A stretch of 64,000 bases of DNA, from positions 10,024 to 74,023 of the forward strand of contig JAGXNS010000003.1 of assembly GCA_019894855.1 (NCBI GenBank), read 5' to 3'. This DNA comes from Promethearchaeota archaeon. GTDB lineage: Archaea > Asgardarchaeota > Lokiarchaeia > Sigyniarchaeales > SOKP01. The notes under the pieces were generated by a model. It was given only the letters and a program-made list of their open reading frames with translations. It made no database searches and was not told the origin of the DNA. The position numbers and the translations under genes were made by a program. Shown here one piece after another: positions 7,704-20,829 of the stretch; position 1 is the stretch's first letter, and the number at the start of each line of letters is the position of its first letter.

Positions 7704-8141
7704 ATGAAAAAAGCAGGATTTGAGTTTAGAGATCATACTGCCGATGTTCAGGTAAGAAGTTGGGGATCATCATTAGAAGAAGCCTTTTCGCAAACCGCTT
7801 ATAGTTTAATGGCGACAATAACGCCAAACTTAAAAAAAATAACTCCTAAAGTCGAAAGAGAACTAACTATCGAGGCTGAGGATAAAGAAGCCCTACTATT
7901 TGATTTTCTTTCTGAATTTTTATATATTTTTGATGTTGATGAGCTTATTTTTAATCAAATCTATGTGCGTTCAATTGAAAAGTTCAATGATAAATATAAG
8001 CTGCGTGCTACTCTAATAGGTGAAAAATTCGACTTAAATAAGCACGAAATAGGAATTGAAGTTAAAGCTATAACATATTCTTTCTTAAATATAGAAGAAA
8101 AACACGAAAGCACTATAATAGATATAGTATTCGATATTTAA
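7704..8141 (+). CDS. Archease (RtcB activator)
   Basis: The N-terminus FEFRDHTADVQVRSWGSSLEEAF and C-terminal VKAITYS are typical of archease. RtcB is the neighbouring gene. Confidence 0.9.
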   Translation: MKKAGFEFRDHTADVQVRSWGSSLEEAFSQTAYSLMATITPNLKKITPKVERELTIEAEDKEALLFDFLSEFLYIFDVDELIFNQIYVRSIEKFNDKYKLRATLIGEKFDLNKHEIGIEVKAITYSFLNIEEKHESTIIDIVFDI

Positions 8142-8293
8142 CTTCGAAATAATTTTTGGATAATAATATCATTCAAAATTTTATTGTATTCATATCGATA
8201 TACTATTCTTGTCTCTGGGTTTATCATGAAATAATAAAAACAATATTTCTTTGTTTGGAAAATTCAAATTAAATAATAAGAAGAAGTAAATAT

Positions 8294-9766
8294 TTATCCT
8301 TTTACAACGCCAATTGGAACTAACCTCACAATTTTTTCTACAATACCTAGATCTTGGCTCACTTGGACTACCTGATCTATGTCTTTATATGCTCCAGGAG
8401 CTTCTTCCGCAATTATTTTAGGAGATGCAGCTCTTACGGTAATTCCTTTATTCCTTAGATCTTCCTTTATTTTAGCGCCCCAATATTGTTTTGTTGCCTT
8501 AGATCTTGACATCAAACGCCCAGATCCATGAGCTGTCGAACCAAAAGAGAGATCCATTGCTTTTGGTCTCCCAACACATAAATACGAAGCGGTTCCCATA
8601 GTTCCCGGAATTAAAACTGGTTGACCTATACTTTTATAATCACGGGGTATATCTGGATGCTCTGGTGGGAAGGCTCTAGTTGCGCCTTTTCTGTGGACGT
8701 TTAATTTCATTTTTTTCCCGTCAACATCATGTTCTTCTATCTTTAAGATATTATGACAAACACCATAAATTAATTTAAAATCCAGATCGTCCAAACTCCT
8801 TTTAAAATGTTTTTGGAAAGATTCTCTTAGCCAATGCGTTATTAACTGGCGATTAGTAAACCCAAAATTTGCAGCACAAGCCATACTTTTCAAGTATTGT
8901 ATTGCCTCCGGAGTATCGGCTGGTACACAAGCTAACTCGCGATCTGGTACTTTTATTTTGTATTTTCTCATTGCTTGCTCGACATTTCTAAGTGAATCCG
9001 TGCACACTTGATGACCAAGAGCCCGAGAACCAGTATGAACCATGATAGCTATTTGATCTTTATCAATGATTCCCAATTTCTTTGCCACTGACTCATTATA
9101 AATCTCATCAACCTTTTGTATTTCGAGAAAATGGTTACCGCTCCCTAAAGAGCCGAGTTGTTTTATTCCTCTTTGCTTTGCTTTTTGAGATACTAATATT
9201 GAATCAGCGTTTTTCAAAAAACCGTTTTCTTCGCAATGCTCTAAATCCTCTTTTATAGCATAATCATTATCTAATGCCCAATTTAAGCCGTTATCTAAAA
9301 CATCATCTAATTGCGAGGAATTGATGCTTAATTTTCCTTTACTTCCTAATCCGGATGGTATATTCTTAAAAATAGAGTCTAGTAAGTTAGGAATTGAACT
9401 TTCAATATCTTTAAGGTGAAGATTTGTTCTTAGAATTCTCACACCACAGTTTATATCGTATCCTACACCACCTGGGGAAACCATTCCAGAATAAGCGTCT
9501 GTTCCTGCTACACCCCCAATACAAAAACCATAACCTTGGTGTGCATCAGAGAGAACAATAGCGTGTTTTTGTATGCCGGGGAGACAAGCTACATTACTAA
9601 TTTGATCCAAAGTTCTATCGTTTTTAATTTTTTCTAAAATGTAATCGTTAGCATAAATATGGACTGGTACTTTCATTTGAAATTTTTCGATCTTTCCTTC
9701 TACTCGAGCCATTAAAGTTTTTTGAGGGATTTCGTAGATGTTTTCATCTATTTTATTCACATTCAT
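8294..9766 (-). CDS. rtcB: RNA-splicing ligase RtcB
   Basis: GVGYDINCGVR, GSGNHFLE, HTGSRALGH, HRKGATRA and STAHGSGR motifs. No intein-like insertion. Confidence 0.95.
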   Translation of the reverse strand: MNVNKIDENIYEIPQKTLMARVEGKIEKFQMKVPVHIYANDYILEKIKNDRTLDQISNVACLPGIQKHAIVLSDAHQGYGFCIGGVAGTDAYSGMVSPGGVGYDINCGVRILRTNLHLKDIESSIPNLLDSIFKNIPSGLGSKGKLSINSSQLDDVLDNGLNWALDNDYAIKEDLEHCEENGFLKNADSILVSQKAKQRGIKQLGSLGSGNHFLEIQKVDEIYNESVAKKLGIIDKDQIAIMVHTGSRALGHQVCTDSLRNVEQAMRKYKIKVPDRELACVPADTPEAIQYLKSMACAANFGFTNRQLITHWLRESFQKHFKRSLDDLDFKLIYGVCHNILKIEEHDVDGKKMKLNVHRKGATRAFPPEHPDIPRDYKSIGQPVLIPGTMGTASYLCVGRPKAMDLSFGSTAHGSGRLMSRSKATKQYWGAKIKEDLRNKGITVRAASPKIIAEEAPGAYKDIDQVVQVSQDLGIVEKIVRLVPIGVVKG

Positions 9767-20217: not shown

Positions 20218-20829
20218 TTAGAATTCAAGAAAGCCGGGGTCGTCAAAAATATCCTCGATTTTTTTTGCCCTCTTCATGTCACTCTCGTCATGCTCTGTAA
20301 ATAAAGAATCGTCATCTGTTTTAATTCCTTTCTCTAACTCAAGAGAGTCTAGTTGAAGTAAAGCATCCTTTTCTAACCTTTTATATTCTTCTGCTTTAAT
20401 TTTCCATTTATTAACTACATCAAGGTTGATATCGTCTTCATCTTCTAAGGCCTCAGCAGCTTTAGCTTTGCAAATATCCGATAAAATAGAATATACTAGA
20501 ACTAATTCCCCCCATTCATTTTTCTTTTTAAGTTTGCCTATGCGTTTTTCTAATCTCTGAAGTTCTTGATCCGCGTAATGAATATCGATAAAATCTCCAA
20601 AGGCATCAACGGGTTCTGATATAGAATTAATTAAAACATCCTTTGTTAAGCCACAATGACCACACTTCACTGTAGCAATTGCGCTTTTCCTAATATTCTT
20701 AACCTTGACAGATTTTTCACCGCAATCCATATTAAATGGGATAACCATTTAGTTATTTGGGCACGTGAAAATCTTTGGAACTCTCTTAACTCTTTTATAT
20801 GATTGTTGTTTACGTTTCCTTCTTCCCAT
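20218..20829 (-). CDS. elf1: Transcription elongation factor Elf1 homologue with an acidic C-terminal extension, interrupted by a 30-nt BHB mini-intron
   Basis: Exon 1 (20755-20829) encodes MGRRKRKQQSYKRVKRVPKIFTCPN. Exon 2 (20218-20724) encodes CGEKSVKVKNIRKSAIATVKCGHCGL...ISEPVDAFGDFID. Joined, they match the Elf1 zinc ribbon CPxC-x20-CxxC and the LSEPVDVY-like motif. Confidence 0.75.
20725..20754 (-). other. Putative bulge-helix-bulge mini-intron (30 nt) within elf1
   Basis: Sense RNA is UGC[CCAA](AUA)[ACUAAAUGG]UUAUC[CCAUUUAAU][AUGG](AUU)GCG, with two 3-nt bulges around a 4-position helix (3 pairs plus an A-A mismatch). It contains an in-frame UAA. Confidence 0.6.

What the first reader, a model, noticed from the sequence alone, without database searches (positions are those of the whole stretch)
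7704..9766. RtcB ligase and archease sit in the same window as two intron-bearing mRNAs, implying systematic mis-annotation
About 60 genes were inspected here, and two of them carry BHB-type insertions that standard ORF callers would report as truncated or split genes. RtcB is the ligase that seals BHB-excised exons, and archease is its activator; the two are encoded convergently at 7704-9766. If the frequency seen here is representative, mRNA splicing could affect a sizeable share of the proteome of this organism. Stop-free in-frame introns would be invisible to ORF inspection. This is a context argument, not proof of a functional link.
Basis: inference. Interest (0 to 1): 0.6.

Follow-up and report, generated by a model that had tools for sequence, protein, structure and literature searches.

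The report
Ordinary RtcB-archease pair, few mRNA introns
The RNA ligase RtcB and its helper archease are really there, but they are the standard tRNA-splicing genes found in almost every related archaeon. A genome-wide search found no protein-gene introns beyond the two already seen in this window, so mRNA splicing is rare here rather than systematic.

Summary
Archease (7704-8141, +) and an intact RtcB (8294-9766, -) lie tail to tail, 152 nt apart. Congeneric genomes carry the same genes with exactly those 30 and 33 nt missing.

The inference drawn from them does not hold:
- **RtcB is generic.** It is single-copy here and present in 78 of 81 sampled Asgard genomes.
- **The co-location is inherited gene order.** RtcB lies about 10-17 kb from Elf1 in relatives whose Elf1 has no intron.
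- **The splicing endonuclease is the expected type.** It is the (alpha-beta)2 form, as published for Asgard archaea.
- **The genome-wide scan found nothing more.** I ran a BHB plus reading-frame-restoration scan of all 2.54 Mb. BHB-like motifs were no more frequent than under a decoy pairing rule. About 690 candidate junctions were tested with Pfam or against relatives, and only the two known introns passed.

Within the family the introns are patchy, present or absent among species of one genus. This scan has already noted such mini-introns on other DNA (126 notes in at least 76 genomes).

The parts
7704..8141 (+). Archease gene (145 aa), cofactor of RtcB
   Evidence: Pfam PF01951, E=3.8e-42, profile 1-136 of 136. 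It is kept next to rtcB in 6 of 8 informative family genomes.
8142..8293 (.). 152-nt spacer between the two convergent stop codons
   Evidence: ORF coordinates. The tail-to-tail arrangement means the two genes cannot share one transcript.
8294..9766 (-). RtcB 3'-phosphate/5'-OH RNA ligase gene (490 aa), uninterrupted
   Evidence: Pfam PF01139, E=3.1e-169. 605 bits to P. horikoshii RtcB with the metal-binding and His-nucleophile motifs kept. Single copy in the genome.
20755..20829 (-). Elf1 exon 1 (25 codons, MGRRKRKQQSYKRVKRVPKIFTCPN)
   Evidence: Sequence and translation.
20725..20754 (-). 30-nt BHB mini-intron in Elf1, splitting the first zinc knuckle (CPN|CG)
   Evidence: BHB geometry: central helix 3/4, outer helix 3/5, inner hairpin 7/8. 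Pfam Zn_ribbon_Elf1 spans the spliced junction. G065, G057, G077, G008 and G049 lack exactly these 30 nt.
20218..20724 (-). Elf1 exon 2 (168 codons plus stop)
54489..54607 (-). Hydrolase exon 1 (39 codons plus 2 nt, ending ...CHPHP-Q)
54456..54488 (-). 33-nt BHB mini-intron in an alpha/beta-hydrolase gene (HPHPQ|YGGDM)
   Evidence: BHB: central helix 4/4, outer helix 4/5, inner hairpin 8/9. G065, G008, G077, G049, G057 and G040 have contiguous homologues across the junction. G071 has the same 33-nt insert.
53936..54455 (-). Hydrolase exon 2 (172 codons plus stop)
   Evidence: Hydrolase_4 profile position 18 starts 8 residues after the junction, that is, in mid-domain.

Best explanation
The locus 7704-9766 is the ordinary archaeal RNA-ligation module. 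RtcB joins the 2',3'-cyclic-phosphate and 5'-OH ends left by the splicing endonuclease. Archease speeds up its guanylylation. Its main work in this organism is tRNA splicing (Asgard tRNA genes are heavily interrupted) and probably rRNA processing.

The same enzymes, together with the (alpha-beta)2 endonuclease encoded on two other contigs, very probably also splice the two mini-introns in the Elf1 and hydrolase mRNAs. That is a side job affecting a handful of genes. It is not a genome-wide layer of expression.

The presence of RtcB in the same 64-kb window is inherited gene order and carries no functional message.

- Shown: the gene identities, their intactness, the endonuclease type, the intron-less orthologues, and the negative census.
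- Inferred: that the two inserts are actually cut and ligated in the cell.
For: - **Identity and intactness of RtcB and archease:**
- **RtcB is generic:** single copy here and present in 78 of 81 Asgard genomes.
- **The RtcB-archease pairing is a published association:** PMC3973293 and PMC4604427. The pair is kept in 6 of 8 informative family genomes.
- **tRNA workload:** 9 of only 22 tRNAs detected by ARAGORN carry introns. Preprint 10.64898/2026.10.13.758758 reports about 2.2 intervening sequences per tRNA gene in some Asgard families.
- **Endonuclease type:** EndA alpha plus beta, as published for Asgard archaea (PMC5829648).
- **Synteny without the intron:** RtcB lies 10.3-17.4 kb from Elf1 on the same contig in G008, G057 and G077, whose Elf1 is intron-less.
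- **Census:** no excess of BHB-plus-frame-restoring sites over a decoy pairing rule at any length or score.
  - 166 strict candidate sites by Pfam gave only Elf1 spanning, with the hydrolase in mid-domain.
  - 402 relaxed candidate sites against G065 and G008 gave only the two known introns spanning without stops. Marginal hits were resolved as gene starts or an antisense shadow ORF.
  - 118 strong-BHB candidate sites of other lengths gave none.
- **Genes split in other Asgard genomes are intact here:** rnhB, uppS and the AMP-phosphorylase-like gene.
Against: - No RNA evidence of any kind.
- The census is not exhaustive.
  - The assembly is 84% complete.
  - The structural filter passed 5/7 (strict) and 6/7 (relaxed) independent positive introns from relatives.
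  - Lengths outside 28-36 nt were tested only for strong motifs, and only 118 of 233 such candidate sites.
  - Genes without an orthologue in G065 or G008 could not be detected, nor could stop-free in-frame introns or UTR introns.
  - The coding-potential filter had to be relaxed after it lost both known positives, so its sensitivity is partly tuned on them.
- It is mildly odd that both introns of a 2.5-Mb genome sit in one 64-kb window (about 2.5% chance for the second).
Confidence: 0.82

Rival explanations
1. One reading: mRNA BHB splicing is systematic in this organism, affecting a few per cent of genes. The two introns seen among about 60 genes would then be a representative sample. Most of the others would have escaped my scan because their motifs are relaxed, their lengths unusual, or they are in frame and stop-free.
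For: - 2 of about 60 genes in the window carry introns.
- The relaxed-specificity (alpha-beta)2 EndA is present.
- One of 7 independent positive introns fails even my relaxed filter.
- Other agents' notes list many different Asgard genes with such introns.
Against: - About 690 candidate junctions were tested and nothing new was found.
- No enrichment over decoy controls.
- With a detection probability of roughly 0.5, zero new hits gives an upper bound of about 6 further introns. A 3% rate would predict 70 or more.
- Three genes that are split in relatives or other Asgard genomes are intact here.
- Every mini-intron I could delimit in this family is 30 or 33 nt, inside the best-covered length range.
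Confidence: 0.06
2. The co-location is functional: RtcB-archease and the intron-bearing genes form a linked unit, co-regulated or co-inherited as a splicing island.
For: RtcB, Elf1 and the hydrolase are on one contig within 46 kb. The RtcB-Elf1 spacing is conserved in several relatives.
Against: - The conserved spacing exists equally where Elf1 has no intron, in G008, G057 and G077.
- The genes are separated by about 10 and 45 kb of unrelated genes on both strands.
- Both EndA subunit genes are on other contigs.
- The rnhB gene in the same window is intron-less here but split in relatives.
Confidence: 0.03
3. The two inserts are not spliced at all. Under this reading the genes are decaying pseudogenes, or are expressed as separate or truncated polypeptides, so RtcB has no mRNA role here.
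For: - No RNA evidence.
- In-frame ATG codons lie in or just after both inserts, so truncated products are conceivable.
Against: - Both inserts have the exact BHB geometry.
- The Elf1 insert of G030 differs at 14 of 30 positions from that of G000 yet keeps the hairpin through paired changes (TAAATGG/CCATTTA against TATTTGG/CCAAATA).
- The exons stay conserved and open in several genomes.
- The Elf1 split falls inside a zinc knuckle and the hydrolase split inside the HPHP-x-GG motif, so the halves would be non-functional alone.
Confidence: 0.07

Closest known systems
RtcB-Archease 'tRNA splicing operon' (Pyrococcus horikoshii and many bacteria and archaea; Desai et al. 2014, PMC3973293; Desai et al. 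2015, PMC4604427)
   Same: The same two protein families lie adjacent. RtcB is 605 bits to the P. horikoshii enzyme with all active-site motifs kept. The adjacency is conserved in relatives.
   Different: Here the genes are convergent (tail to tail, 152 nt apart), so they are neighbours and not an operon. In two genera of the family (G019/G030) and in another family (G029/G048), archease is not within 1.5 kb of rtcB.
cbf5 pre-mRNA BHB intron of Crenarchaeota (Watanabe 2002; Yoshinari 2006; Yokobori 2009, PMC2738675)
   Same: An endonuclease-type (BHB) intron sits inside a protein-coding sequence in an organism with a hetero-oligomeric EndA. It shows gain and loss among relatives.
   Different: The genes differ (Elf1, an alpha/beta hydrolase, and rnhB in relatives) and so does the phylum (Asgard). 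The inserts are very uniform mini-introns of 30-33 nt consisting of the BHB core only. Splicing has not been shown experimentally.
(alpha-beta)2 splicing endonuclease with the Crenarchaea-specific (L1) loop (Aeropyrum pernix, PDB 3P1Z; Hirata 2011, PMC3241643; Kaneta 2018, PMC5829648)
   Same: There are two paralogues of about 200 aa. One (contig C127) aligns end to end with the A. pernix catalytic subunit, with Tyr/His/Lys kept and the loop segment KPR... present. The other (C95) lacks the catalytic His.
   Different: Nothing unusual. This is the type already published for Asgard archaea, so it does not single out this genome.
BHB intron in the 5' UTR of HVO_1309, Haloferax volcanii (Schwarz 2020, PMC7714728)
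   Same: An experimentally shown case of EndA acting on an mRNA. It was found as one single extra substrate in a whole-cell survey, which matches the 'rare side job' picture.
   Different: That intron is in a UTR, is 46 nt long, and sits in an organism with an alpha'2 EndA. UTR introns were not searched for here.

Membership tests
RtcB RNA ligase (PF01139) | Full-length match to the family profile | tested here: met
   564 bits, profile 1-426 of 426.
RtcB RNA ligase (PF01139) | Metal-binding Asp/Cys/His residues and the His that is guanylylated (P. horikoshii D95, C98, H203, H234, H329, H404; numbering from memory) | tested here: met
   DINCG, GSGNHF, HTGSR, CHNI and AHGSGR align to the P. horikoshii motifs.
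RtcB RNA ligase (PF01139) | Ligation of 2',3'-cyclic-phosphate or 3'-phosphate ends to 5'-OH ends | not testable with these tools
   Needs an enzyme assay.
Archease (PF01951) | Full-length match to the family profile | tested here: met
   144 bits, profile 1-136 of 136.
RtcB-archease operon (Desai 2014) | Both genes co-oriented in one transcription unit | tested here: not met
   The genes are convergent. They are adjacent neighbours only. The adjacency is conserved in 6 of 8 informative relatives.
(alpha-beta)2 splicing endonuclease | Two separate EndA paralogues, only one with the catalytic Tyr-His-Lys triad | tested here: met
   The C127 ORF keeps the triad (VYKKGPGLEHSPF...SVRKK). The C95 ORF has KDSAKF where M. 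jannaschii has KEHSVY. Both pass PF01974.
(alpha-beta)2 splicing endonuclease | Specific loop (L1/CSL) in the alpha subunit that gives broad substrate range | tested here: inconclusive
   The loop region aligns without a gap to A. pernix (ISKPRLEYFSKP against VEKPRGADFEGP). No structure or assay is available.
Archaeal BHB intron in an mRNA (cbf5 type) | Two 3-nt bulges separated by a 4-bp helix at the exon-intron boundaries | tested here: met
   Elf1: 3/4, 3/5 and 7/8 pairs. Hydrolase: 4/4, 4/5 and 8/9 pairs in the canonical register.
Archaeal BHB intron in an mRNA (cbf5 type) | Removal restores a conserved, contiguous protein | tested here: met
   Intron-less orthologues in congeners. The Pfam Elf1 domain spans the junction.
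Archaeal BHB intron in an mRNA (cbf5 type) | Spliced mRNA and excised (circular) intron detectable | not testable with these tools
Systematic (proteome-scale) mRNA splicing | Many further intron-bearing genes in the same genome | tested here: not met
   0 further cases among about 690 tested candidate junctions. No excess over decoy.

The most novel reading that the evidence does not exclude
Each genome carries only a handful of mRNA mini-introns, but across this Asgard family they form a fast-turning-over population. Each species has a different small set (Elf1, hydrolase, rnhB and others), with presence or absence differing within one genus and the same site occupied in non-sister genera. 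At pan-genome scale many gene families would then be affected. The introns would be gained and precisely lost on short timescales, conceivably through the EndA/RtcB machinery itself (reverse splicing) or through recombination with spliced-RNA copies.
Probability: 0.2. Interest if true: 0.7.

Novelty: already known. Interest (0 to 1): 0.3.

Why it matters
The result puts a number on a tempting extrapolation. tRNA-type introns in Asgard protein genes are real and gene callers miss them. In this genome they affect about 2 genes, at most roughly 8 out of about 2,300. They do not affect a sizeable share of the proteome.

Finding RtcB or archease nearby is no predictor of such introns. For annotation, a BHB-aware check belongs where a conserved motif is broken by a 30-33-nt stop-rich insert, and wholesale re-annotation is unnecessary.

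The presence/absence pattern among congeners is the more useful lead for how such introns arise and disappear.

Tried and rejected
- **Broad BHB scan, intron length (L) 16-120 nt.** I scored 15 base-pair positions and tested for reading-frame merging. It gave about 100,000 hits, no more than a decoy pairing rule gave, so it was useless on its own.
- **Strict coding-potential filter** (5th-order three-periodic Markov model, 94% correct frame on 90-nt windows). It removed both known introns, so I relaxed it.
- **A 'no start codon near exon 2' filter.** Rejected, because both true exon 2 segments have an in-frame ATG in or just after the intron.
- **Seven marginal spanning hits from the relatives test.** Each resolved to something ordinary:
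  - C80:27316 is an antisense shadow ORF of a conserved gene.
  - C55:37240 is a GTPase gene start.
  - C90:25399 is a TTG gene start.
  - C139:575, C33:12129, C12:2428 and C66:36361 are gene starts.
- **Twenty junctions that relatives span only through stop codons.** All are an ordinary gene end followed by a gene start.
- **'Stops inside' Elf1 matches in distant Asgard families.** I first read them as introns. They are just the natural end of a shorter Elf1. The notebook was corrected.
- **One combined alignment of Elf1 and rnhB introns for a formal covariation count.** MAFFT put the two groups out of register, so I dropped it.
- **Not run.** The last 115 of the 233 strong-BHB candidate sites with lengths outside 28-36 nt, and a statistical test for stop-free in-frame introns.
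Full report
**What is at 7704-9766**

The window is G000:C104:10024-74023 of a 2.54-Mb metagenome-assembled genome in 170 contigs. It has 32% G+C and is 84% complete.
- ORF 7704-8141 (+) is a full-length archease (PF01951, E=3.8e-42).
- ORF 8294-9766 (-) is a full-length RtcB (PF01139, E=3.1e-169).
- RtcB scores 605 bits against the Pyrococcus horikoshii enzyme. The motifs DINCG, GSGNHF, HTGSR, CHNI and AHGSGR are all present, with no stop or insert.

The genes are convergent with a 152-nt spacer. They are therefore neighbours and cannot form an operon.

**The rest of the machinery**

- RtcB is single-copy in this genome. It was found in 78 of 81 sampled genomes of the phylum.
- Archease lies directly beside rtcB, in the same convergent arrangement, in G071, G065, G057, G049, G008 and G040. 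It does not in G019, G030, G029 or G048.
- An RtcB-archease gene association is well known (PMC3973293, PMC4604427).
- Two EndA paralogues of about 200 aa lie on other contigs.
  - The C127 protein aligns end to end with the catalytic subunit of Aeropyrum pernix EndA (3P1Z_B). It keeps Tyr, His and Lys and the loop segment.
  - The C95 protein has lost the catalytic His.
- This is the (alpha-beta)2 type with relaxed specificity, exactly what Kaneta et al. reported for Asgard archaea (PMC5829648).

It is a property of the whole superphylum and not of this genome.

ARAGORN finds only 22 tRNAs, 9 of them with introns. This fits a recent preprint reporting that Asgard tRNA genes are heavily and cryptically interrupted (10.64898/2026.10.13.758758). 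tRNA splicing alone is enough to explain why these genes are present.

**The two mRNA introns are real features**

Earlier notes of this scan gave their positions. I re-derived them.

*Elf1.* The sequence reads ...TGCCCAAAT|AACTAAATGGTTATCCCATTTAATATGGAT|TGCGGTGAA..., with the insert at 20754-20725 on the minus strand.
- In the canonical register, with cleavage after the second nucleotide of each 3-nt bulge, it has 3/4 central-helix pairs, 3/5 outer pairs and 7/8 hairpin pairs.
- Splicing gives CPNCGEKS. The Pfam Elf1 zinc-ribbon then spans the junction.
- The Elf1 genes of G065, G057 and G077 (same genus) and of G008 and G049 are exactly 30 nt shorter at this point and read CP(N/S/E)CGEKS.

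*Hydrolase.* The insert is at 54488-54456, 33 nt.
- It has 4/4, 4/5 and 8/9 pairs.
- It splits the HPHPQ|YGGDM motif.
- G065, G008, G077, G049, G057 and G040 have contiguous homologues. G071 has the same insert.

**Is the co-location meaningful?**

No.
- In G000, rtcB and Elf1 are 10.5 kb apart.
- The same spacing on one contig is seen in G008 (10.3 kb) and G057 (10.7 kb), and it is 17.4 kb in G077. Elf1 is intron-less in all three. G071 and G040 also keep it.
- The neighbourhood is inherited gene order that exists with or without the intron.
- The hydrolase is 45 kb away, and the endonuclease genes are elsewhere in the genome.

**Genome-wide census**

*Step 1: geometric scan.* I scanned both strands of all contigs for the BHB geometry and asked whether removing the putative intron merges two open frames. 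A decoy pairing rule (x pairs with the complement of its true partner) served as control. At every length (16-120 nt) and score, real hits were no more numerous than decoy hits. For example, 1086 real against 1299 decoy at 14 or more of 15 pairs.

*Step 2: mini-intron model.* I added a coding-potential model and a model in which the whole interior is one hairpin. This left 166 candidate loci of 28-48 nt.
- Pfam on the junction peptides gave a domain spanning the junction only for Elf1. It gave a mid-domain start only for the hydrolase.
- Every other hit began at profile position about 1 or ended at the profile's end, which marks an ordinary gene end followed by a gene start.

*Step 3: relaxed set.* A relaxed set of 402 loci had length 28-36 nt, central helix at least 3/4, outer helix at least 2/5 and at most 2 hairpin mismatches. 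I tested it by searching concatenated junction peptides in two relatives that lack the known introns, G065 and G008.
- Both positive controls came out on top, without stops (E down to 8e-30).
- No other junction was spanned without stops.
- Seven marginal cases and 20 cases 'spanned through stops' were inspected by eye. All were gene starts, gene ends or an antisense shadow ORF.

*Step 4: other lengths.* 118 strong-BHB loci of other lengths gave nothing.

*Step 5: genes split elsewhere.* rnhB, uppS and an AMP-phosphorylase-like gene were reported split in other Asgard genomes by other agents. They are intact here.

**Sensitivity and bound**

I collected independent positive introns from relatives: four rnhB introns, two Elf1 introns of genus g3 and the G071 hydrolase intron.
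- They pass the strict structural filter in 5 of 7 cases and the relaxed one in 6 of 7.
- All of them are 30 or 33 nt.

Allowing for losses at the ORF and coding filter and for genes without a usable orthologue, I take an overall detection probability of about 0.5. This figure is my estimate. Zero new hits then bounds further introns at about 6 (95%).

That gives about 8 or fewer in roughly 2,300 genes, scaling from the window's gene density, which is 0.3-0.4% or less. The window's 2 in 60 is not representative.

Stop-free in-frame introns remain invisible to this approach. From base composition, a random 30-nt insert escapes an in-frame stop with probability about 0.45. That class should therefore be about the same size as the visible in-frame class and cannot be large.

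**Distribution among relatives**

- The Elf1 intron is present in G000 and in genus g3 (G030, G019), at exactly the same codon boundary.
  - 16 of 30 positions are identical between G000 and G030.
  - The hairpin shows paired changes: TAAATGG/CCATTTA against TATTTGG/CCAAATA.
  - It is absent from three congeners of G000 and from genus g2.
- The rnhB intron (DEAGR|GP, 30 nt) is present in G077 (a congener), G008, G049, G019 and G030.
  - It is absent from G000, G071, G057, G065 and G040.
  - It is absent from all 71 sampled genomes outside the family.

So each genome has its own small set, and precise loss, or gain at the same site, is frequent. This is the most interesting by-product of the work.

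**rtcB itself**

rtcB is uninterrupted in G000. In another genus of the phylum (g26: G047, G064, G070, G038, and probably G028) it carries a 29-30-nt insert at PD|AHQGYG.
- The insert contains a stop or shifts the frame.
- It has an all-G:C central helix (CCCG/CGGG), a 3-nt 5' bulge and a variable hairpin.

Other agents of this scan have reported rtcB mini-introns many times in DPANN archaea.

**Comparison with what is known, and verdict**

- The locus is a normal RtcB-archease pair, which is already known.
- The closest precedents for the mRNA introns are the cbf5 intron of Crenarchaeota (PMC2738675) and the single 5'-UTR intron found in a whole-cell survey of Haloferax EndA substrates (PMC7714728). 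That paper still counted cbf5 as the only other example.
- I found no paper on mRNA BHB introns in Asgard archaea.
- This scan has noted them 126 times in at least 76 genomes. These are unchecked AI notes and I treat them as leads only.

It is wrong that its position or the local frequency implies systematic mis-annotation.

Noticed in passing
window 20725-20754; loci L021-L026 (Elf1) and L079-L085 (rnhB): Intron presence and absence differ within one genus. The Elf1 intron is in G000 and genus g3, but not in three congeners or in genus g2. The rnhB intron is in congener G077 and in genera g2 and g3, but not in G000. The G000 and G030 Elf1 introns sit at the identical site, share 16 of 30 bases, and keep the hairpin through paired changes. 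This implies repeated precise loss, or gain or transfer at one site.
   Followed up: partly
L096-L099 (G047:C58, G064:C175, G070:C93, G038:C1): In another Asgard genus (g26) the rtcB gene itself carries a 29-30-nt insert at PD|AHQGYG. The insert contains a stop or shifts the frame, and has a 4-bp G:C central helix and a variable hairpin. It is a candidate BHB mini-intron in the ligase's own mRNA. rtcB of G000 has none.
   Followed up: partly
table: G053:C31, G044:C5, G035:C16, G026:C1, G074:C1, G003:C38: In several other Asgard families the RtcB match is split (residues about 28-108 and 106-490) within one open frame of 970-1015 aa. That is a roughly 500-aa in-frame insertion, most likely an intein.
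   Followed up: no
window 20218-20829 (Elf1): Elf1 of this family is 193 aa. It has an acidic or coiled C-terminal extension of about 110 aa that is absent from the 80-90-aa Elf1 of other Asgard families. G008 and G040 have a second Elf1-like copy.
   Followed up: no
G000 contig C55, about 37240 (outside the window): A small Ras-like GTPase gene reads ATA-ATC-AAA-TTT... where G065 and G008 have ATG-ATC-AAA-TTT (MIKFKVVVAGAKNVGKT). There is a TGA two codons upstream and no ATG, GTG or TTG. Possible readings are a non-canonical ATA start, a recent start-codon loss, or a sequencing error.
   Followed up: no
whole genome G000: ARAGORN finds only 22 tRNA genes in an 84%-complete genome, 9 of them with introns and several with odd anticodon positions. 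Many tRNA genes are probably missed because of multiple or non-canonical introns, as the 2026 preprint on Asgard tRNAs describes.
   Followed up: no
G000 contig C33, about 9177 (outside the window): An RNA 3'-terminal phosphate cyclase (RtcA, PF01137) gene starts here, directly after a 388-codon upstream gene. The genome therefore also has the end-healing partner of RtcB, unlinked to rtcB.
   Followed up: no
window 20725-20754 and 54456-54488: Both detectable mRNA introns of a 2.5-Mb assembly lie in one 64-kb window. A priori the chance for the second is about 2.5%.
   Followed up: no
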